A model generated the notes under the pieces. It did no database searches. It was given only the letters and a program-made list of their open reading frames with translations, and was not told the origin of the DNA. Made by a program: the position numbers and the translations under genes. From the NCBI GenBank assembly GCA_002422785.1, contig DITK01000058.1:1-8357 (forward strand): a stretch of DNA of 8,357 nucleotides, in the 5' to 3' direction. Numbering within the stretch: the first letter of the stretch is position 1; each line of letters starts with the position of its first letter. Below, piece by piece: positions 3 through 8,357 of this stretch. This stretch comes from Francisellaceae bacterium UBA6186 (GTDB taxonomy: Bacteria; Pseudomonadota; Gammaproteobacteria; UBA6186; Azoamicaceae).

Positions 3-89
3 GAACAAACCTACTCCCACTCAATAAACACCGATTTACTAGAACAAGCATATATGCGGCTCTTAGAGCATTTAAAAAGTAGTGTGTAA
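3..89 (+). CDS. Partial CDS (3' end only, start lies outside the window); possibly the C-terminus of a tyrosine recombinase
   Basis: Frame 3 is open from the window edge to TAA at 87-89 and reads EQTYSHSINTDLLEQAYMRLLEHLKSSV*. The T-Y-S-H-S stretch resembles the catalytic-Tyr region KDTYYHTT of the 425-aa integrase in this window. Frame 2 is also open to 82, so the frame choice rests only on this motif resemblance. Confidence 0.3.
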   Translation, partial: EQTYSHSINTDLLEQAYMRLLEHLKSSV

Positions 90-218: not shown

Positions 219-3005
219 CTAAGCTTTAACTTTTCTCTTTTTAACTGGTGCGGAAGGAAGCAAACTTGTTAGTTCTTCATAACGCTTGAACAAGAATGCA
301 ACTCTGCTAGCATCGTCATCAGTACCTTTGTATCCAAATATCTTATCAACCACTTTGTTATTCGCAGTGTGTGCTTTAGCAAGTTCTACAGGCATTGTTA
401 AAGGATCATATAAATCAGCCAAACTAAATGCTGGGTATTTTTCTCTTGCATTTAAAATATCTTGTGCAGTTTTATTTACAGCTGCATCAGCTTCTTCACT
501 TACAGATTTAGGATAAGGAAAATTGTTATAAACGATTGTATTTGAGTAACTATAATCACTTTTCATTCTTCCGCACACTGCCCTCATCCAAGCCATATGC
601 ATAGAACTATTTAAAATAGCAAAACTACTAAGAGTGGCATTAGAAACAAAAAATATTTTATCGCCACAAATAGTAGAGTTGTTTAAATATGCAATAGGTA
701 TGTAAGCTCTGCGTTCACTACTTACTTTTGGTATCGCCAAGTACGTAGAAGAATTAGATATTCTAATTTCACCAAATCGTGTTGGGCTATTAGCTAGTGC
801 AACTGTGATTTCTTTTTTAGATGCAAGTCTCATTTTTCTTACAGCTTCAACACGCTCTAATACAAGTGGCATTTTCTTAAGCTCTGATGCAGAAATATTT
901 TCTAACCATAAACACCAACGATCAATTCCATTAATAAATTCATCACCCATTAAGTAACGCTTTATCCATTTTTCTGCACTAGGTTCTTTAATTAATAAAT
1001 CATTTTTTTCATCATCACTCAATAATAAATTTCCACCATCAACAGGGGAACTTCCCCTAGTCATTGTGGGCATACTTAAAATTAGTGGTGATTTTCTTTT
1101 TTCTAATAAAACGTTAGCAGCATCAACTAAGTAAGCATTGATTTGCTTTACTTTAACTTCAACAGGCTCTAATGCAATATCTGCATATGTATATATACGC
1201 TTAATATTTCTATCAAATTTTGCAAATCCAATAACAACACAATGAACAGCAGCAATTCCTTTGCCTTCATTACTCCATTTAAATGTTTTGTGCGCAAAGT
1301 TAATTTTTATTCCCTTAGCACTTAAACTACGCCAAAGTACTGCGGGCTGTTCACCCTGTGTAATACTGTTAGTTGAAACAAAAGCACATTCGATTAATTC
1401 ATTATTCTGTATGTAATTTGCAGCTTTTACGTACCAACCACAAACATAATCGAGAACACCTGCACCATGTAATTTACCAAATACAACTTCTAAATCTTCT
1501 TTCTGCTCTTTACTTTGTACGCTGTAACCAATAAATGGTGGATTTCCCAACACATAACTACATTTAAGTGCTGATAAAACATCATCCCAGTCAATACGTA
1601 AGGCATTATTAACTGTAATTTGAGGTGTGGCAGTTAAAGGAATAGTTGCACGTGTCGTACCAAAATACTTTGCTGCCTGCTCATTTTGTTGATGATCTGT
1701 TATGTATAGAGCAACACGAGCGATATGTGCAGCAGCTTCATCTATTTCAATACCATAAAACTGTGTAAGATTGACACGGCATAGAGTTGAAACATCAAGT
1801 AACCCTCGCCTCTTATTTAATTCAAATAATTCAGCAATTACATCATTTTCTAATTTTCTTAGTTCTCTGTATGCAATAACAAGAAAATTACCACAACCAC
1901 AAGCTGGGTCAAAAAATGTAAGGGTTGGCAATTTATCGTAAAGAGTTTTAAGCTTTGTTTTATTATTCTTTGCCGTTTCAAATTCAGCTCTTAGTGTTTC
2001 TAAAAACAACGGATTAATAACACGAAGAATATTACGTTCGCTAGTGTAATGTGCACCTAACTCTCTTCTTGTAGCTTGACGTGTTTCGTGCGTTGCATGT
2101 TCCTCAAGTACACCTTGAAACATTGCACCAAATATTGCAGGACTAATTGCACTCCAATCAAGCGTTGCACACGTAAGTAATAACTCTCTCAACTCACTAT
2201 TAAAAACTGGTATACGTGTACGTTCTTCAAACAAGCTACCGTTAACATACGGAAATGCTGCAAGAGTGTCATCTAACGTACTTTGCCTATCAGCATCATT
2301 AGTATTTAAGATGTCAAAAAGTTCGTTTAGTTTTTGCCCAGTATCACTACCATCAGCTTTAGCATTTTCAACAAATCTTCTAAAGCGTCCGTTATCACCA
2401 AAAATGTTTGTGTCATCTGCAAACAAGCAAAACAACAAACGAGTTAAGAAAACTTCTAAGTCACGACCTTTAAAATTAATTCGTATTAGTGCTTCATGCA
2501 ATCTACTAATTGCATACGCCGCGTTACGATTGATTGGCGTTTCCTCGACAATTGCTGTCTGCTCATCACCATATAAAAATTTAAACCAACTACCATGTTT
2601 TGGTAATTCAGCTAGCGTTGTTTCATGTGTTTCATTAGCAGCAAGATCATGTAGGACAATACGTGAAAAGTCACTGGTAATTATGTACTTGGGACGCTCC
2701 TCTGGTTTTAGTGCAAGAAAATATTCTTGTGCTTGCTCGTAAGCTATGCCCAAGTCCTTGCCCTTACTCTTATGCTCAACAATCAGCAAGCCTGGTATAA
2801 AGCTATCAATGCGACCTAAGTTGCCATCCAACTTACGTACTTGCTGTTCAAATACAGTCACCTCTGCGGCACTAATACCAAAGCAGTTATAAAAGCTTGC
2901 CCAAAACATCTGTGCTTGCCGTTGCTCGTTCTCAGCTGTTTTGAACTGTTTGGCAAATTTCTGCAAACGTGTTTTTACTTCTGTGCTTGATAGTCGTGCT
3001 GTCAT
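219..3005 (-). CDS. MmeI-family type IIL/IIG bifunctional restriction endonuclease and N6-adenine DNA methyltransferase (single polypeptide, 928 aa from ATG 3005)
   Basis: A long ORF that matches remembered MmeI blocks along its whole length. The N-terminal PD-(D/E)xK motif is D-x9-E-x-K in GRIDSFIPGLLIVEHKSKGKDL (D codon 2805-2807, E 2775-2777, K 2769-2771). Further matching blocks are LLFCLFADDT, AAFPYVNGSLFEE, LDWSAISPAIFGAMFQ and LGAHYTSERNIL. SAM motif I is FFDPACGCGNFL (1881-1916) and catalytic motif IV is NPPF (1533-1544). C-terminal blocks are CAFVSTNSITQGEQ, KINFAHKTFKW, GDEFINGIDRWCLWL, LYDPLTMP and FLFKRYEELTSLLP. I moved the start from GTG 3029 to ATG 3005 because an AAGAGGG Shine-Dalgarno lies 5 nt upstream of the ATG, whereas the GTG falls inside the predicted -10 box. 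Confidence 0.95.
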   Translation of the reverse strand: MTARLSSTEVKTRLQKFAKQFKTAENEQRQAQMFWASFYNCFGISAAEVTVFEQQVRKLDGNLGRIDSFIPGLLIVEHKSKGKDLGIAYEQAQEYFLALKPEERPKYIITSDFSRIVLHDLAANETHETTLAELPKHGSWFKFLYGDEQTAIVEETPINRNAAYAISRLHEALIRINFKGRDLEVFLTRLLFCLFADDTNIFGDNGRFRRFVENAKADGSDTGQKLNELFDILNTNDADRQSTLDDTLAAFPYVNGSLFEERTRIPVFNSELRELLLTCATLDWSAISPAIFGAMFQGVLEEHATHETRQATRRELGAHYTSERNILRVINPLFLETLRAEFETAKNNKTKLKTLYDKLPTLTFFDPACGCGNFLVIAYRELRKLENDVIAELFELNKRRGLLDVSTLCRVNLTQFYGIEIDEAAAHIARVALYITDHQQNEQAAKYFGTTRATIPLTATPQITVNNALRIDWDDVLSALKCSYVLGNPPFIGYSVQSKEQKEDLEVVFGKLHGAGVLDYVCGWYVKAANYIQNNELIECAFVSTNSITQGEQPAVLWRSLSAKGIKINFAHKTFKWSNEGKGIAAVHCVVIGFAKFDRNIKRIYTYADIALEPVEVKVKQINAYLVDAANVLLEKRKSPLILSMPTMTRGSSPVDGGNLLLSDDEKNDLLIKEPSAEKWIKRYLMGDEFINGIDRWCLWLENISASELKKMPLVLERVEAVRKMRLASKKEITVALANSPTRFGEIRISNSSTYLAIPKVSSERRAYIPIAYLNNSTICGDKIFFVSNATLSSFAILNSSMHMAWMRAVCGRMKSDYSYSNTIVYNNFPYPKSVSEEADAAVNKTAQDILNAREKYPAFSLADLYDPLTMPVELAKAHTANNKVVDKIFGYKGTDDDASRVAFLFKRYEELTSLLPSAPVKKRKVKA

Positions 3006-3015
3006 GTTTACCCTC

Positions 3016-3057
3016 TTGTCTCGTATCACTATAGCCGCTATAGTAGTTTTGTGACAA
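3016..3057. promoter_or_regulatory. Dyad-symmetric divergent promoter pair with a perfect 17-bp palindromic operator candidate (3028-3044)
   Basis: The palindrome is ACTATAGC-C-GCTATAGT (3028-3044). Plus-strand promoter: -35 TTGTCT 3016-3021, 17-bp spacer, -10 TATAGT 3039-3044, followed by SD AGGAGA 3073-3078 and ATG 3085. Minus-strand promoter: -35 TTGTCA (complement of 3052-3057), 18-bp spacer, -10 TATAGT (complement of 3028-3033), followed by the SD and ATG 3005. The outer TTGTC and GACAA elements are also inverted repeats. Confidence 0.5.
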
Positions 3058-3084: not shown

Positions 3085-3384
3085 ATGGCAACGCGTAAAC
3101 CACGTACTTCAAAAACAAGTGATGAACTTAAGAAAGAGCTTGAAGCAGCTAAGAGAAAAATTGCAGATCTCGAAAAACGTGCATATGCAGAAGAACTTAC
3201 AGAGCTAATTAAATCAACTAATATTGTCGCTGATTTTACAAAAATAAAAAGCAAAGTTAAAGACATTAAACCAGTTGCAATTTTACAAGCCATCGCAAGT
3301 GCTGTTGGTTTAAAACGAGTACAGATAGTAGAACCTGAACCTGTCAAGCGTAAGCCACGTTCACCTAAAACAGGCACAAAGTAA
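3085..3384 (+). CDS. Hypothetical small basic protein (99 aa): central coiled-coil-like region with an RKPR motif in each terminal tail
   Basis: A strong SD (AGGAGA) lies 6 nt upstream of ATG 3085. The stop overlaps the next start (TAATG at 3382-3386). Charged heptad-like segment: DELKKELEAAKRKIADLEKRAYAEELTELIK. N-terminal tail TRKPRTSKT and C-terminal tail KRKPRSPKT. The antisense 119-aa ORF has no comparable signals. Confidence 0.75.
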   Translation: MATRKPRTSKTSDELKKELEAAKRKIADLEKRAYAEELTELIKSTNIVADFTKIKSKVKDIKPVAILQAIASAVGLKRVQIVEPEPVKRKPRSPKTGTK

Positions 3385-3740
3385 TGGCGGCGCAACGTAG
3401 GAAACTCACGTTGCGTGAGCAAATATTTAACGAAAAAGTTAAAGCATGGAATTTATATAACAGTATGCAAGTTCAAAAGGTACTTGAACATACAAGCAGA
3501 GATGAACAAGATGAAATCAACTATACCTATAAAAAAATATACAAATACTGGGGGGGCGTTGAATTTGTTAATTGGTTACGTGCTGTATATAAAATATGCA
3601 GAGACAGAAACAAGAATATCGAAAACATCATCATCTTAAATTTACCTAAAAGAACAGATAGTGATGCAGTGAAAATTCATAACTTAAAAGTTATTGCAAA
3701 GCAGATGGGTTTGGATGTAACTATTACTAAAAATTCTTAA
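3384..3740 (+). CDS. Hypothetical protein (118 aa), translationally coupled to the upstream gene
   Basis: ATG 3384 overlaps the upstream TAA by 1 nt. It is on the same strand as its neighbours and fits tightly between them. I recognise no family motif. It contains a G7 homopolymer at 3550-3556. Confidence 0.75.
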   Translation: MAAQRRKLTLREQIFNEKVKAWNLYNSMQVQKVLEHTSRDEQDEINYTYKKIYKYWGGVEFVNWLRAVYKICRDRNKNIENIIILNLPKRTDSDAVKIHNLKVIAKQMGLDVTITKNS

Positions 3741-3766
3741 ATTTAATTCTTAATTTGGTTACCAAC

Positions 3767-4456
3767 ATGCTTGATACAACATCATATGCTGATAAGTTAC
3801 CTCAAACACTTAATGAAACTCTAAAAGAGTTTACTGCTGGTGAATGTGTAATGGTTAGAAAAACAAAAGACAATGACAAGCGTAAAGGTAAATCAGGTAA
3901 TTGTCACATTAATGTACAAAACTGTATAGATATAGAAGGTGGAAACTCAGTAAGTGGTTGGCTACTAAAACGAGATCAAAAACTTATTGATAAAGATATG
4001 TATGCTTGGAATTTTCACAGTGTTTGGGAAAAACCTGACGGGAAATTACTTGATGTAACTGAAGATAAAAATTATATTGGTAGAGATAAAAGTATATTCG
4101 TACCAGATAGCTATAGAAAACCTGATTTAATTAAAGGTTTATCTTTTAACAGCTTTATTATTTTTACTAATCATGCGTTTACAAAGTATTACGGCAATGC
4201 TATTGGTAAAGACTTAATTTCAAACAAAATATATTGGTGTGACAATACACTTACAAATTTAATTGAAAAAGATAAACATAGTGGTGAATATCTTTTACTT
4301 AAAAATTACCCAAATAATTTAAAAAAGATGTGTGATCAATATGAATTTGATTACATAGATGGAAAATTCATTGCTCGTGCAGGAAGCAAATACGAAGGTA
4401 TGGATGGTTTACCAATACAAGCTATATTTGATTACAACTTAAAATTGAGAGCATAG
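3767..4456 (+). CDS. Hypothetical protein (229 aa from ATG 3767; alternative TTG 3755) with a putative transglutaminase-like or papain-like Cys-His-Asp core
   Basis: This is the third gene of the operon, 26 nt after the previous stop. The motifs GKSGNCHINVQNC (Cys codon 3902-3904) and WNFHSVWEKPDGKLLDVTED (His 4016-4018, Asp 4052-4054) give a C-x37-H-x11-D spacing. The local context resembles the G-x-C ... H-x-W-x-E ... D-x-T pattern of transglutaminase-like folds. Neither candidate start has a strong SD. Confidence 0.8.
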   Translation: MLDTTSYADKLPQTLNETLKEFTAGECVMVRKTKDNDKRKGKSGNCHINVQNCIDIEGGNSVSGWLLKRDQKLIDKDMYAWNFHSVWEKPDGKLLDVTEDKNYIGRDKSIFVPDSYRKPDLIKGLSFNSFIIFTNHAFTKYYGNAIGKDLISNKIYWCDNTLTNLIEKDKHSGEYLLLKNYPNNLKKMCDQYEFDYIDGKFIARAGSKYEGMDGLPIQAIFDYNLKLRA

Positions 4457-4472
4457 CTTAATTTTTATTAAA

Positions 4473-5048
4473 TTAAATTAATTCCACTGCACGCCTTTGC
4501 ATAGCCTCGTTAACATCTATATAGACCTGAGTTGTAGAAATATTGGCATGGCGAGCAAGCGACATTAATACGCGAACACCAACGCCCTTCTCAGCTAAGT
4601 TAGTAATAAAAGTACGTCTACCACTATGACTACTTGCGCCATTTATACCTGCTCGTTTGTATAGATAATGAAAATGTTGCGTTAGCGTGTTAGCTGTAAA
4701 TCCTTCACCACCCTTCTTCTGTGTATAAATCAACTTGTCTTGCTTGTTAATACATGGAACTTGTGCAATGTAAGATTGCAATTCTTTACGTAGCTTTTCA
4801 CTAACAAATACTGTTCCAGTCTTGCTACCTTTTGTTTGTTCTGCACTTAAGTAAATTTCACCTTTTACTTTATCCTCATCGTCAAGTACATCGCCATAAC
4901 GCAAACTAGCAACTTCTTTGCTACGTAATCCTGCGTAAAAAGTTAAAAGTAATGCAATACGATTTCTATGCGAATGATTACGTGTTGCAACATAATCCAA
5001 TACCTTTCGTATTTCCTGTGCTGTTAGTGTTTTTGCTTGCTTTGACAT
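4473..5048 (-). CDS. Small tyrosine site-specific recombinase, catalytic domain only (191 aa from ATG 5048; the ORF is open to ATG 5138, giving 221 aa)
   Basis: The catalytic signature is present: R in FYAGLRSKEV, H-x-x-R in SHSGRRTF, H in LARHANIS and Y in TTQVYIDV. Size and N-terminus (MSKQAKTLTAQEIRKVL) resemble FimB/FimE-type recombinases that lack an arm or core-binding domain. I prefer ATG 5048 because AGGAGA lies 6 nt upstream, and the 30-codon extension would have to read that AGG AGA as tandem rare codons. ATG 5138 has a weaker AAGGA. Confidence 0.85.
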   Translation of the reverse strand: MSKQAKTLTAQEIRKVLDYVATRNHSHRNRIALLLTFYAGLRSKEVASLRYGDVLDDEDKVKGEIYLSAEQTKGSKTGTVFVSEKLRKELQSYIAQVPCINKQDKLIYTQKKGGEGFTANTLTQHFHYLYKRAGINGASSHSGRRTFITNLAEKGVGVRVLMSLARHANISTTQVYIDVNEAMQRRAVELI

Positions 5049-5189
5049 TAATGCTCTCCTAAATGTAAGCTTTTGTATGTCTAAAGCATATTTTCTTTGT
5101 TTGTTTTCTGCGACCTTTTTATTGTTATTTTGTATCATTGCAATTTCCTTAATTAATTCAACAACTTAATGCTCCACTTACAATAAAAT

Positions 5190-5213
5190 CAAAGCTTTTG
5201 TGTATTAGCTTTG
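5190..5213. repeat. Inverted repeat CAAAGCT-N10-AGCTTTG in the recombinase upstream region
   Basis: Arms at 5190-5196 and 5207-5213 are perfect reverse complements. It contains AAGCTT. The 10-mer AAGCTTTTGT recurs as a direct repeat at 5067-5076 and 5192-5201. Confidence 0.4.
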
Positions 5214-5249
5214 GTTTTTACTAAATTGATGCATGTTGTCTATCTCCCA

Positions 5250-5358
5250 CAGCTTCAAGCTGGCGCTGTAATACGCTGTGTACGCTATTAGTCCATTTTC
5301 CTGTTATACATACACTCAGTTAGCGTTTATCTACGTTTACAGCGTGTATTGCAGCTTG
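5250..5358. repeat. Composite dyad and iteron cluster (candidate origin or recombinase/Rep binding region)
   Basis: Palindrome CAGCTT-C-AAGCTG at 5250-5262. Three tandem units follow: CGCTGTAATA (5264-5273), CGCTGTGTA (5274-5282) and CGCTATTAG (5283-5291). There is an imperfect inverted repeat of about 29 bp between 5256-5284 and 5333-5358. Its perfect cores are CAAGCTG/CAGCTTG (5256-5262 and 5352-5358) and CGCTGTAA/TTACAGCG (5264-5271 and 5337-5344). A T-rich, C-poor tract follows at about 5360-5455. Confidence 0.45.
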
Positions 5359-5468
5359 TATCAGTGTTGTTGTTTTATATTTACTTGCTGACTTTGTTGT
5401 TAGTATTTTTAACTTGTATTGTTCTGTAAGTATTAGTTAGTTTATTTTATTTAGGCAAAGCTTCGCTA

Positions 5469-5492
5469 ATTAAAGCTTAAACAAGCTTTAAT
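5469..5492. repeat. Perfect 10-bp stem, 4-nt loop hairpin ATTAAAGCTT-AAAC-AAGCTTTAAT, 38 nt downstream of the Rep-like gene stop
   Basis: Arms at 5469-5478 and 5483-5492 are exact reverse complements. It is flanked by the near-palindrome GCAAAGCTTCGC (5456-5467). Neither strand has a U-tract, so it is not a canonical intrinsic terminator. Confidence 0.45.
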
Positions 5493-5529
5493 GCAATCAG
5501 CAAAAGACAAACGTGGTCAGTAATGCTGT

Positions 5530-6057
5530 TTAAGATAGTTGCCATAACACGTTGTCCGTGTCATGCGTTCCAACTTCTTTTGTAATGTATTCCATCCAAC
5601 CGCTATCAGCTAAGTCAACTTTGTACTGTTCGTCAATCTCACAAACATGCATCTTAGCTTCACGTACCAAAGCATCAACTTGGTTTAGTGCTATATGACT
5701 TGGTAAATTACCAATAGCCAAATGTAGGTGTAAATTTTTGCTACTTCGCTGCCCTTCCACCACAACAAAGTAATTTAATTTCTTTCCATACTTTTCAGCT
5801 GCACGTTTACCAAATACTTCTCTATTCAGCTTTTGTGTAAATCGCTTTGCAACCCTATCGCAATCACTTCTTTGTAGCTTTTCAATATAAACACCATTAG
5901 CATTTTTTATACTTGAATGTTGCTTTAAGGTGAGTGTTAAAGCGATTGGGTATTGCTTGTGAAGAGAAGATGCAAATGACCTTACAGCTTGTTTGACTGT
6001 TGGTGTTGCATTTGGTTTATATGCGGTTTTATTGCGAATATCTGCTAGTGTGTACAT
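5530..6057 (-). CDS. Minimal HUH-superfamily Rep-like protein (175 aa; rolling-circle Rep, inovirus Gp2 or YagK/YfjJ-like)
   Basis: All three rolling-circle motifs occur in the canonical order. Motif 1 is IALTLTL (residues 38-44). Motif 2 (HUH) is NLHLHLAIG, with H110 at 5728-5730 and H112 at 5722-5724. Motif 3 is EYITKE, a Y-x-x-K with Y157 at 5587-5589 and K160 at 5578-5580. The pre-HUH context RFTQKLNREVFGKRAAEKYGKKLNYFVVVEG is typical of small Rep proteins. No helicase domain is present. The RBS is weak. Confidence 0.7.
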   Translation of the reverse strand: MYTLADIRNKTAYKPNATPTVKQAVRSFASSLHKQYPIALTLTLKQHSSIKNANGVYIEKLQRSDCDRVAKRFTQKLNREVFGKRAAEKYGKKLNYFVVVEGQRSSKNLHLHLAIGNLPSHIALNQVDALVREAKMHVCEIDEQYKVDLADSGWMEYITKEVGTHDTDNVLWQLS

Positions 6058-6132: not shown

Positions 6133-6165
6133 TTTTAGCTCAATTTACTATTTTTGGAGCTAAAA
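6133..6165 (+). promoter_or_regulatory. 9-bp stem-loop that would sequester the Shine-Dalgarno of the downstream gene (or a DNA operator)
   Basis: TTTTAGCTC (6133-6141) and GAGCTAAAA (6157-6165) are perfect reverse complements separated by a 15-nt loop. The 3' arm covers the GGAG SD (6156-6159) and ends directly before ATG 6166. Confidence 0.4.
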
Positions 6166-6606
6166 ATGAGTGTTTTAAACAAGTTCAAATTGGTTGTCGC
6201 AAATCGTCAAAACAAGCTTAGCCCAACTGCTTTTAGACGTAAAAAGCTATGTGGAAAAATTGCTGAACAGCTTGCTATGGCTAAAGCAAAAAAAGAAGGT
6301 AAAACATTCATTGCTACAAAGCTTAAACGTGTTGTAGATGCGAATACTGGAATAGCAACTGATATTGAAGTTACTAAACGAGTGAAAGAATGGTACTGGT
6401 TTGAGAATAATAAAATTCAATTGCAAATCATGTACGGCACTAAGCCGCTTACATTAAATGCTAAAGGTGCAAATACAGTTGAAATTGCTAGCGGTGACGA
6501 ACTGATTAATACATTAGAAGTATTAATAGAAGCTGTTGCAACGGGTGAACTTGATGATGCAATTGAAAGTGCTAGTAAAACACTACGCGAAAGATTTGAT
6601 AAGTAA
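6166..6606 (+). CDS. Hypothetical protein (146 aa), divergent from the Rep-like gene
   Basis: A GGAG SD lies 6 nt upstream of ATG 6166, and the TTG at 6154 lacks one. It is a clean ORF followed by a hairpin. I recognise no family motif. Confidence 0.8.
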   Translation: MSVLNKFKLVVANRQNKLSPTAFRRKKLCGKIAEQLAMAKAKKEGKTFIATKLKRVVDANTGIATDIEVTKRVKEWYWFENNKIQLQIMYGTKPLTLNAKGANTVEIASGDELINTLEVLIEAVATGELDDAIESASKTLRERFDK

Positions 6607-7079: not shown

Positions 7080-8357
7080 TTAACGTGGCAAAATCAATCC
7101 GTCTTTAATAACGTATTGTGCCAGTGCATTAGTTACCATTCGTTCTTTAGTAGTATGGTAATAAGTATCTTTAATTTGTTTTACGCTTGTTCCACACATT
7201 TCAGCAACTGCACTTAGCGAAAGATTACTATTAATCTTATCTGTAATAAAGTAATGTCTGCAGCTATACGGAACAATATCTCGTGTATTCAAGTTCATTA
7301 TTTCAGCTTTATCTAATAAAACTTTGAAATGATGGTCAATTGCACGAACTGTTATTGGTACATAACCGTTAGTGCTAAAAATTAACGCATCAGTTAGTTT
7401 TTTAGGTTTTTCTTTACTTGCTTCTTGTGCATAAAATTTAGGCTTGAATAACTTTAGTAATCTATCAAAATAATCTAAATCTTTAACCATAAAGACACGA
7501 GTTTTATCAACTTTACTCGTCTCAGCACGTACAGTTATTTTAACTAATTCGTGTTCTTCACCCTCATAAGTGTGTGTCTCATGTCGTATATCTTGCCAAC
7601 GTAATTGTAATTGCTCACCACGTCTTAATCCCGTCATAATTGCAATTGCAATATGAAAACATACTAGCGCTTTTACATAATTTTTATCATCATCTGTATC
7701 TTTCAGTGCTTCTTCTAAATATTCATTTAGTGCTTTCCAGAAGTCATTCATTTCTTCAGTTGTAAAGATACTGCGTCTTAACTTATCGTCTCCCTTATCT
7801 AACTTCTTCAATTTCTTAAATTCAAAACCATCAATGTCAGTTAACTTATTTTTATAAAGCCAACTCATCATTGCATTTATTGTGCTCTGTTCGTTAAGTA
7901 CAGTTGTTTGGCTAACAGCAATGCTTTTTTTTGTTTTAGTACGATTGCTTGAATAGTTAAAGCAATCCATTCGCTCTAACTCTTTCAGCTTTGTATCTTT
8001 CTTAATGAAGTTTAGCCAATGCTCTAAGTGCGTTTTAATTGTAGACAAACGACCTTTTACAATAATGCCGTCATCAACATCAATTTGCCGTTGCTTAACG
8101 TAACGATCAACACCCTCTTTTGTTGTTATTGAAAAGTAAGGTTTGTTGTTAGCTTCTAATACTTTTAATTCGTAATAGTATTTTTCAGCTTTATCTATTG
8201 CTGTTTGTCTATTTCTTACTTTAAGACTGAAACGTGCGTACTTGTGTTCTTTTACAAGCCACATCCTAAAGTGCCAAAACTCGCCGCGTTTATATAAGAG
8301 TACGTTGTCAAACAACGCAATCTCGTCTTCGCTAAATTCTTTTTTCTTAAGTGTCAT
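7080..8357 (-). CDS. Tyrosine integrase (phage-integrase family, 425 aa; the start codon coincides with the window edge)
   Basis: The N-terminus is integrase-like (LLYKRGEFWHFRMWLVKEHKYARFSLK). Box I is TGLRRGEQLQLRWQDI. The box II region is PYSCRHYFITDK ... MCGTSVKQIKDTYYH. The ATG occupies 8355-8357, so upstream signals cannot be seen. Confidence 0.9.
   Translation of the reverse strand: MTLKKKEFSEDEIALFDNVLLYKRGEFWHFRMWLVKEHKYARFSLKVRNRQTAIDKAEKYYYELKVLEANNKPYFSITTKEGVDRYVKQRQIDVDDGIIVKGRLSTIKTHLEHWLNFIKKDTKLKELERMDCFNYSSNRTKTKKSIAVSQTTVLNEQSTINAMMSWLYKNKLTDIDGFEFKKLKKLDKGDDKLRRSIFTTEEMNDFWKALNEYLEEALKDTDDDKNYVKALVCFHIAIAIMTGLRRGEQLQLRWQDIRHETHTYEGEEHELVKITVRAETSKVDKTRVFMVKDLDYFDRLLKLFKPKFYAQEASKEKPKKLTDALIFSTNGYVPITVRAIDHHFKVLLDKAEIMNLNTRDIVPYSCRHYFITDKINSNLSLSAVAEMCGTSVKQIKDTYYHTTKERMVTNALAQYVIKDGLILPR

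What the first reader, a model, noticed from the sequence alone, without database searches (positions are those of the whole stretch)
3767..4456. 229-aa orphan protein with a transglutaminase-like Cys-His-Asp signature
The sequence GKSGNCHINVQNC ... (37 residues) ... WNFHSVWEKPDGKLLDVTED places Cys, His and Asp in the order, spacing and local context seen in transglutaminase-like and papain-like thiol enzymes. That pattern is G-x-C, then H-x-W-x-E, then a hydrophobic pair followed by D-x-T. A thiol peptidase or protein-modifying enzyme encoded beside an RM gene would be an unusual effector or regulator. The C-terminal 120 residues have no recognisable feature.
Basis: inference. Interest (0 to 1): 0.6.

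Follow-up and report, generated by a model that had tools for sequence, protein, structure and literature searches.

The report
Unnamed Cys-His-Asp protein of mobile island
The 229-residue protein is a fixed backbone gene of a family of small mobile DNA islands, not an orphan; it carries a strictly conserved Cys-His-Asp set that looks like a thiol-enzyme active site, but no test linked it to transglutaminases or to any solved fold.

Summary
The ORF (3767-4456, +, ATG start) and the motif are real.

"Orphan" is wrong. There are 59 close homologues and 192 cluster representatives. The core domain matches phrog_37148, a phage family of unknown function. No Pfam or NCBIfam model covers it.

C46, H84 and D96 are almost invariant across relatives that share only about 20% identity. 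Two relatives have Ser in place of Cys. Two AlphaFold models place Cys at a helix N-terminus, with His and Asp on the next two hairpin strands. That is the papain/transglutaminase core order.

Membership of the transglutaminase family was tested and failed:
- Pfam gave no hit.
- HMM-HMM against five papain-like families gave probability of 0.1% or less, while positive controls reached 81-95%.
- Foldseek against PDB found nothing for either model.

The restriction gene nearby is exchangeable cargo. The constant partner is a catalytic-domain-only tyrosine recombinase, found tail-to-tail in 25 of 26 related loci.

Best reading: a cytoplasmic thiol hydrolase or transferase of a new family that serves the island. 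The substrate is unknown.

The scan has noted this guaA-island family in other genomes, but not this protein.

The parts
3767..4456 (+). CDS of the 229-aa protein ('T229'), ATG start, stop included
   Evidence: Homologues align from residue 1. AlphaFold2 model has mean pLDDT 90.5 and pTM 0.85.
3842..4126 (+). Conserved core domain (about residues 26-120): strand, Cys-helix, then four strands. This is the only part shared with distant relatives and with phrog_37148.
   Evidence: Secondary structure.
3902..3904 (+). Cys46 codon (TGT), the proposed nucleophile, at the N-terminus of helix 46-57
   Evidence: Invariant in alignment A1. Cys in 196 of 198 core sequences and Ser in the other 2. Helix position.
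4016..4018 (+). His84 codon (CAC), in the middle of strand 78-88
   Evidence: Invariant in every alignment made.
4052..4054 (+). Asp96 codon (GAT), on strand 94-96, which forms a hairpin with the His strand
   Evidence: Asp in 192 of 198 sequences, otherwise Asn 4, His 1, Glu 1. Invariant in A1 and A3.
4127..4453 (+). C-terminal domain (residues 121-229), specific to the island subfamily, with its own invariant residues and no family match
   Evidence: The weak phrog_12792 hit is seen in 1 of 34 members only.
3085..3384 (+). Upstream 99-aa coiled-coil protein with a basic tail, first gene of the same transcription unit. Homologues lie upstream of T229 in some relatives.
   Evidence: Promoter-like site at 3016-3044 and no terminator-like site before T229.
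3384..3740 (+). 118-aa ORF between the 99-aa gene and T229, with no homologue in the related loci compared
4473..5138 (-). 221-aa tyrosine recombinase with the catalytic domain only. It is convergent with T229 (16 bases lie between the two stop codons) and is T229's constant partner.
   Evidence: PF00589 1.5e-26. Present downstream on the opposite strand in 25 of 26 evaluable related loci.
5530..6057 (-). 175-aa Rep-like protein (backbone gene)
   Evidence: PF23343 REP_ORF2-G2P 1.1e-7. Conserved in related loci.
6154..6606 (+). DUF6641 protein (backbone gene)
7080..8357 (-). 425-aa integrase at the end of the element (backbone gene)
   Evidence: It lies next to the 3' end of guaA in L001.
219..3029 (-). 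MmeI-family type IIG restriction-modification enzyme. This is exchangeable cargo and not a partner of T229.
   Evidence: Other cargo occupies the same position.

Best explanation
T229 is a backbone gene of a family of small integrative islands. The backbone is integrase, DUF6641 protein, small Rep, catalytic-domain-only tyrosine recombinase and T229, with exchangeable cargo beside it.

Its N-terminal core (about residues 26-120) belongs to a widespread, unannotated domain family. That family is also found as stand-alone proteins in plasmids, chromosomal islets and phage-derived clusters (phrog_37148).

The most likely biochemistry is a cytoplasmic thiol enzyme. Cys46, at the N-terminus of a helix, would be the nucleophile. 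His84 would be the general base. Asp96, on the neighbouring strand, would orient the His. This is a papain-like catalytic logic that hydrolyses or transfers an acyl (peptide, isopeptide or amide) group.

Shown: the gene is real and conserved, the three residues are conserved, the order of secondary-structure elements holds, the protein is linked to the island backbone, and it is independent of the RM cargo.

Inferred: that the three residues form a triad, that the protein is an enzyme, and that it acts for the mobile element (establishment in a new host, or the recombinase/Rep module). The substrate is unknown.
For: - Real family: 59 homologues at 44-85% identity and 192 cluster representatives.
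- Core conservation: C46, H84, D96, plus G58/G59/G64/W65/W87/T98/F111, are conserved down to about 20% identity.
- Nucleophile-type substitutions: Cys is replaced only by Ser, in 2 sequences. Asp is replaced only by Asn, Glu or His. That fits a nucleophile and a triad third member better than metal ligands.
- No other Cys or His is conserved across the family. H47 becomes Tyr or Phe in 25 of 198 sequences, and N49 is lost in the SEC-C subgroup.
- Structure: the model is confident (pLDDT 90.5). Cys starts helix 46-57, His lies in strand 78-88 and Asp in strand 94-96. A second model of a 20%-identical relative has the same layout.
- Cytoplasmic: no signal peptide, and pI 8.1.
- Backbone status: tblastn finds T229 together with the small recombinase, Rep, DUF6641 and integrase in related loci, while the cargo differs.
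Against: - No sequence or fold link to any known thiol enzyme. Pfam, NCBIfam and PADLOC gave no hit for T229. PDB sequence searches were empty. hhalign gave probability <=0.1% against five papain-like families. Foldseek against PDB gave nothing with E below 0.09 for two models.
- The distance between the three side chains could not be measured, because no coordinates were available.
- A few relatives have lost the Cys helix altogether (P0220, P0221), so not all members can be enzymes.
- There are no expression or biochemical data.
Confidence: 0.5

Rival explanations
1. T229 is a true but very divergent member of the transglutaminase-like/papain-like superfamily (homologous, with the same fold).
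For: - The same order of elements as the transglutaminase core: G-x-C at the start of a helix, a Gly turn, a strand ending in G-aromatic, a strand with H-x-x-W, and a strand with hydrophobic-D-x-T.
- With hhalign forced to give a full path, the G-x-C and D-x-T motifs line up collinearly with Transglut_core.
- NlpC/P60 is not detected by the other papain-like families in the same test either, so very distant membership can escape this method.
Against: - Pfam gave no hit at E<=1.
- hhalign probability was <=0.1% (P>=0.3) against Transglut_core, Transglut_core3, Peptidase_C93, NAT and NlpC/P60. In the same set-up Transglut_core versus C93 gave 95% and versus core3 81%.
- In the forced alignment the His is out of register.
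- Foldseek against PDB, which holds many such folds, returned no transglutaminase or papain-like hit for a pLDDT-90 model or for a second model. The only thiol-protease-like entry scored E 0.2 with probability 0.15.
Confidence: 0.15
2. T229 is not a hydrolase. It is an accessory factor of the neighbouring half-size tyrosine recombinase or of the Rep, for example a relaxosome or recombination-directionality component. The conserved Cys, His and Asp would bind a metal or serve a structural role.
For: - The small recombinase lies downstream on the opposite strand in 25 of 26 evaluable loci, and directly tail-to-tail in about 18.
- Catalytic-domain-only tyrosine recombinases are known to act as atypical relaxases that need a second small protein: MpsA with MpsB (PMC6414798) and MobK (PMC8152469).
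Against: - Distant T229-like proteins occur without any recombinase: in Acinetobacter conjugative plasmids, in a chromosomal islet between yggX and DUF1800, and next to unrelated genes.
- Homologues of the small recombinase on plasmids have no T229 partner.
- The pI is near neutral, so the protein does not look like a DNA binder.
- Replacement of Cys by Ser does not suit a metal ligand.
Confidence: 0.2
3. T229 is a counter-defence or host-takeover enzyme of mobile elements. It would cleave or modify a host protein when the element enters a new cell. This is a biological-role version of the best explanation.
For: - The core domain turns up on phage-derived clusters (phrog_37148: 34/34 close and 73/88 distant members).
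- It is found in conjugative plasmids among runs of small unknown genes, in islands, and only sporadically in genomes (2 of 400).
- Some relatives carry a C-terminal SEC-C tail, as CBASS E2-only proteins do.
Against: - This is purely contextual.
- No match was found in the GenBank phage collection (tblastn) or in IMG/VR (pattern scan confirmed by tblastn) for the T229 subfamily.
- No PADLOC or known anti-defence family matches.
- No phenotype is known.
Confidence: 0.15

Closest known systems
Transglutaminase-like cysteine peptidase core (Pfam PF01841 Transglut_core; relatives PF13471 and PF06035/BTLCP)
   Same: - A conserved Cys-His-Asp set in that order.
- Cys at the start of a helix, with His and Asp on consecutive strands.
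- Similar local motif grammar: G-x-C, H-x-x-W and hydrophobic-D-x-T.
   Different: - No HMM or HMM-HMM similarity.
- Shorter spacing: Cys-to-His is 38 and His-to-Asp is 12, against 44 and 16 in the Transglut_core examples fetched.
- No Foldseek match to solved structures.
phrog_37148 (PHROGs v4, unknown function)
   Same: It covers the same core, residues 44-99 of T229. All 34 close homologues and 73 of 88 distant relatives match it, with best E 7e-41.
   Different: - The family has no described function.
- T229 itself matches weakly (E 0.0016).
- T229 has an extra C-terminal domain of about 110 residues.
SGI1 MpsA/MpsB and pIGRK MobK (tyrosine-recombinase-type relaxases with a helper; PMC6414798, PMC8152469)
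   Same: The genetic setting is alike: a small mobile element with a stripped-down tyrosine recombinase next to a non-coding origin-like tract and, in pIGRK, a rolling-circle Rep. A second protein is needed in SGI1.
   Different: - MpsB is a 98-aa helical domain like the N-terminal domain of integrases, not a Cys-His-Asp protein.
- T229 is convergent with the recombinase, not in its operon.
- Nothing here shows that the recombinase is a relaxase.
CBASS E2-only proteins (PADLOC 'E2' models)
   Same: Distant relatives of T229 share the architecture of a catalytic-Cys domain, a helical linker and a C-terminal SEC-C zinc motif.
   Different: - The matches are confined to the SEC-C tail.
- The same model hits short C-terminal stretches inside ~900-aa open frames, most likely SecA, in most of 85 of 300 genomes.
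- In E2 proteins the Cys follows a beta-meander, whereas here it precedes the sheet.
- T229 has no SEC-C tail.

Membership tests
Transglut_core (PF01841) / transglutaminase-like superfamily | Match to the family HMM at or above the curated cut-off | tested here: not met
   No Pfam family at E<=1 for T229. None of 88 distant relatives hits a papain-clan family.
Transglut_core (PF01841) / transglutaminase-like superfamily | Profile-profile similarity to bona fide members with Cys, His and Asp in register | tested here: not met
   hhalign probability <=0.2%. Positive controls: Transglut_core versus Peptidase_C93 95%, and versus Transglut_core3 81%.
Transglut_core (PF01841) / transglutaminase-like superfamily | Cys at the N-terminus of a helix, then His and Asp on two successive antiparallel strands | tested here: met
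   DSSP on two AlphaFold2 models. T229: H46-57, E78-88, E94-96. Relative P0199: H46-57, E75-85, E91-93.
Transglut_core (PF01841) / transglutaminase-like superfamily | Three-dimensional superposition on solved transglutaminase or papain-like cores | tested here: not met
   Foldseek against PDB gave best E 0.25 and 0.095, with no such fold among the top hits. Foldseek can miss cores of about 70 residues, so this weakens the claim but does not exclude it.
Transglut_core (PF01841) / transglutaminase-like superfamily | Cys, His and Asp side chains within hydrogen-bonding distance | not testable with these tools
   Model coordinates are not returned. Only pLDDT and secondary structure are given.
Other papain-like families (NAT PF00797, NlpC/P60 PF00877, Peptidase_C93 PF06035, Transglut_core3 PF13471) | Profile-profile similarity | tested here: not met
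   hhalign probability <=0.1% for all four.
phrog_37148 | HMM match over the core domain | tested here: met
   T229 E 0.0016 over residues 44-99. 34/34 close homologues (best 2.6e-8) and 73/88 distant relatives (best 7e-41) match.
CBASS E2 (PADLOC E2 models) | Match over the E2 catalytic domain | tested here: not met
   T229 has no PADLOC hit. In relatives, hits cover only the SEC-C tail, at profile positions about 140-200.
Anti-phage defence proteins (PADLOC-DB 2.0) | Match to any defence-system model | tested here: not met
   No family at E<=0.1 for T229.

The most novel reading that the evidence does not exclude
T229 and its relatives form a previously undescribed superfamily of thiol (Cys-His-Asp) enzymes. 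Its fold is not represented among solved structures. It is carried by islands, plasmids and phages and is used to modify or cleave a host or element protein. In the guaA-type islands it would be a fixed functional partner of the half-size tyrosine recombinase and Rep module.
Probability: 0.3. Interest if true: 0.7.

Novelty: new variant of a known kind. Interest (0 to 1): 0.42.

Why it matters
If the triad is catalytic, this is a new family of cysteine enzymes that current domain databases do not describe. A confident structure model finds no relative among solved structures.

The family rides on mobile DNA of several kinds. It is also one of only about five fixed genes of a family of small islands that ferry restriction and other defence cargo between freshwater and other bacteria.

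Knowing what it does would explain part of how these minimal islands work. It could also add a new enzyme activity to the repertoire of mobile-element/host conflict.

If the residues turn out to be structural, the finding reduces to an ordinary conserved hypothetical backbone gene.

Tried and rejected
1. Pfam, NCBIfam and PADLOC scans of T229 gave nothing.
2. PDB sequence searches used two profiles. Only a NosL match at E 0.012 appeared. It lacks the His and vanished with the broader profile, so it was rejected as chance.
3. Foldseek against PDB with two models returned only noise.
4. Foldseek against BFVD gave uncharacterised phage proteins and one 'GIY-YIG_COG3680' protein. No GIY-YIG signal exists in T229, and the aligned regions are not shown, so this was not used.
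5. hhalign against five papain-like families built from genome hits was negative, with working positive controls.
6. The PADLOC 'E2' hits of distant relatives looked exciting but are only the SEC-C tail.
7. A link to the RM gene was rejected because the cargo differs between relatives.
8. A toxin-antitoxin-like pairing with the upstream ORF was rejected. orf118 is not conserved, and the conserved upstream genes are coiled-coil proteins with basic tails.
9. The contig was tested for circularity, and no terminal overlap was found.
10. The neighbours of plasmid homologues of the small recombinase were checked for hidden T229 relatives, and they are unrelated.
11. A pattern scan of reference genomes (confirmed by tblastn) found none.
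12. A pattern scan of IMG/VR (confirmed by tblastn) and a tblastn of the GenBank phage collection found none.

Full report
**What is in the sequence**

An open frame runs 3755-4456 on the + strand. The ATG at 3767 gives 229 residues. All close homologues begin with the same MLDTTSY, so 3767 is the start. The quoted peptides and the 37-residue spacer are correct.

**It is not an orphan**

A search of 5.8 billion proteins gave 59 homologues of 134-249 residues at 44-85% identity, nearly all full length. All come from metagenomes or draft genomes, and all are unnamed. An exhaustive HMMER search of 50%-identity cluster representatives found 192 proteins at E<=1e-3, of which 24 were at E<=1e-30.

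The distant hits share only residues about 40-120 of T229. They are 90-460 residues long, with varied C-terminal parts.

No Pfam, NCBIfam or PADLOC model matches T229. The only Pfam domain shared by several of the 88 distant relatives is a C-terminal SEC-C motif, seen in six.

The core does match one PHROG family of unknown function, phrog_37148. T229 matches weakly (E 0.0016, residues 44-99). All 34 close homologues match, and 73 of 88 distant ones do, with best E 7e-41.

**Conservation of the three residues**

| Alignment | Finding |
|---|---|
| 34 close homologues | C46, H47, N49, H84 and D96 invariant |
| T229 plus 87 distant relatives (about 18-32% identity), unfiltered | H84 and G59 invariant; C46, N49, G58, G64, W87, D96, T98 and F111 at least 90% conserved |
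| 198-sequence core alignment | Cys 196, Ser 2; His84 198; Asp96 192 (Asn 4, His 1, Glu 1); H47 is Tyr or Phe in 25 |

The 198 sequences were picked with a pattern that required these residue classes, so those counts are partly circular. N49 is lost in the SEC-C subgroup.

The family therefore keeps exactly one Cys, one His and one acidic or amide residue. The substitutions allowed (Cys to Ser, Asp to Asn or Glu) are those expected of a nucleophile and a triad's third member. They are not those expected of metal ligands. That last step is inference.

Two relatives have lost the Cys helix altogether (P0220 and P0221).

**Structure**

AlphaFold2 with the 34-sequence alignment gave a confident model, with mean pLDDT 90.5 and pTM 0.85. 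The order of elements is:
- helix 13-23
- strand 28-32
- helix 46-57, with Cys46 as its first residue
- strand 60-68
- strand 78-88, carrying His84
- strand 94-96, carrying Asp96
- strand 108-113
- a second, mixed domain

A second model was made of a core-only relative that is 20% identical (P0199, pLDDT 73.8, core blocks 71-94). It has the same layout, with Cys, His and Asp in the same elements.

In a hairpin with strands 78-88 and 94-96, residues 84 and 96 would point to the same face. This is geometric reasoning only.

**Tests of transglutaminase or papain-like membership**

1. Pfam gave nothing at E<=1.
2. Profile searches of PDB sequences gave nothing credible.
3. I built alignments of real members of five families from genome hits and compared them with the 198-sequence core profile by hhalign. 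The families were Transglut_core, Transglut_core3, Peptidase_C93, arylamine N-acetyltransferase and NlpC/P60.
   - Every comparison gave probability <=0.1%.
   - In the same set-up, Transglut_core versus Peptidase_C93 gave 95%, versus Transglut_core3 81%, and versus NAT 6%.
   - Trimming both profiles to the triad region and forcing a full path lines up G-x-C and D-x-T collinearly. The His is then out of register, and the score is not significant (P 0.29).
4. Foldseek against 350,542 PDB chains found no match with E below 0.25 for T229 or below 0.095 for the relative. The single thiol-protease-like entry had probability 0.15.

T229 therefore works like a papain-type thiol enzyme on paper. It cannot be filed as a transglutaminase-family member. 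NlpC/P60 was not detected by the other papain-like families either, so a very remote relationship is not excluded.

**Genomic setting**

The window is a whole 8,357-base contig of a 1.3-Mb draft genome. It carries, in order:
- an MmeI-type IIG restriction-modification gene (219-3029, -)
- two small ORFs and T229 (+)
- a 221-residue tyrosine recombinase with the catalytic domain only (4473-5138, -)
- a 390-base non-coding tract (5139-5529)
- a 175-residue Rep-like gene
- a DUF6641 gene
- a 64-codon ORF
- a 425-residue integrase

A promoter-like site lies at 3016-3044, and no terminator-like site precedes T229. This fits one transcript covering orf99, orf118 and T229.

*Related contigs.* In 29 related contigs with close homologues, the same backbone recurs: T229, the small recombinase, Rep, DUF6641 and the integrase. 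In 26 of these contigs there is enough sequence after T229 to judge. The small recombinase lies downstream on the opposite strand in 25 of those 26. In about 18 it is directly tail-to-tail.

*Cargo.* The genes on the other side of T229 differ between loci:
- MmeI-type RM
- AlwI-type RM with a methylase
- an SNF2-family helicase
- a umuD/cho/dinB-like set
- Sel1-repeat and unknown genes

The RM gene is therefore cargo, and T229 is not its regulator or effector.

*Integration.* One locus shows the integrase end abutting the 3' end of guaA. Another shows two elements in tandem.

*Earlier notes.* Earlier notes of this scan describe the same guaA-integrating, Rep-bearing island family in other genomes and compare it with pIGRK-type plasmids. 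They do not discuss this protein. My data agree with them on the island.

**Relatives outside the islands**

- A 160-residue relative sits among runs of small unknown genes in large Acinetobacter conjugative plasmids such as pA297-3. Others are on Xanthomonas plasmids.
- SEC-C-tailed relatives stand alone in unrelated neighbourhoods.
- A marine chromosome has two T229-like genes and a 180-codon gene inserted after mutY-yggX, with no recombinase.

The family is rare in genomes. It was found in 2 of 400 sampled from the same class and in none in a pattern scan of reference genomes. The T229 subfamily was not found in the GenBank phage collection (tblastn) or in IMG/VR (pattern scan confirmed by tblastn). 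Homologues of the small recombinase on plasmids have no T229-like neighbour.

The domain can therefore work without the recombinase. This weighs against a pure recombinase-accessory role.

**A false lead**

Seven distant relatives hit PADLOC 'E2' (CBASS) models. The hits cover only the C-terminal SEC-C tail. The same model also hits short C-terminal stretches inside ~900-aa open frames, most likely SecA, in most of 85 of 300 genomes. Real E2-only proteins have their Cys after a beta-meander. This is an architectural parallel, not homology.

**Verdict**

A conserved Cys-His-Asp set in papain-like order is real, and a thiol-enzyme mechanism is the best reading (about 0.5). Transglutaminase membership failed every test that could be run, and the RM link is incidental.

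The protein is neutral in charge, has no signal peptide, and is presumably cytoplasmic. Its substrate and its role for the island remain inferred.

Noticed in passing
window 4473-5138 (-): The 221-aa tyrosine recombinase has only the catalytic domain (PF00589), with no N-terminal core-binding domain. It is the size of FimB/FimE invertases and of the MobK/MpsA-type relaxases. It sits next to a 390-bp non-coding tract and a small Rep, as in pIGRK-type plasmids. Homologues are common on Acinetobacter, Piscirickettsia and Legionella plasmids.
   Followed up: partly
L022 5955-6236; L121 5902-6183: A partial copy of the 3' end of the small recombinase gene (residues 147-221, 40% identity) lies directly after the T229 homologue. 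In L022 it is followed by three cargo genes and then the full recombinase gene; the L121 contig ends shortly after the remnant. This may be a footprint of cargo insertion at that junction.
   Followed up: no
window 3085-3384; L021 3946-4251; L022 4896-5225; L001 7768-7989; L003 7742-7987: Two unrelated families of small proteins precede T229 in different islands. Both have an N-terminal coiled coil and a Lys/Arg-rich tail, which resembles small nucleoid-associated (H-NS-type) regulators. The resemblance is my impression and was not tested.
   Followed up: partly
L115 214-1488 and 11243-12499: Two integrase genes with 85% nucleotide identity flank one complete island. This suggests tandem arrays of related islands at one attachment site.
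   Followed up: partly
L134 7902-10025: A marine chromosomal contig carries two diverged T229-like genes (35% and 29% identity) separated by a 180-codon gene. They are inserted between yggX and DUF1800/DUF1501 genes, with no recombinase nearby.
   Followed up: partly
G000:C10:16146-16319 and many other genomes: PADLOC CBASS 'E2' models (for example PDLC00865) include a SEC-C motif. They therefore give E of about 1e-6 hits to short C-terminal stretches inside ~900-aa open frames, most likely SecA, in most of 85 of 300 genomes. This is a source of false 'E2' calls.
   Followed up: yes
window 3016-3057: Two opposed promoter-like sites (TTGTCT-17-TATAGT on +, TTGTCA-18-TATAGT on -) share the gap between the RM gene and the orf99 operon.
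   Followed up: no
L034 (pA297-3, record 45225-59599): The Acinetobacter plasmid relative lies in a region where blocks of a TetR regulator followed by several genes of about 160 aa with unknown function seem to repeat.
   Followed up: no
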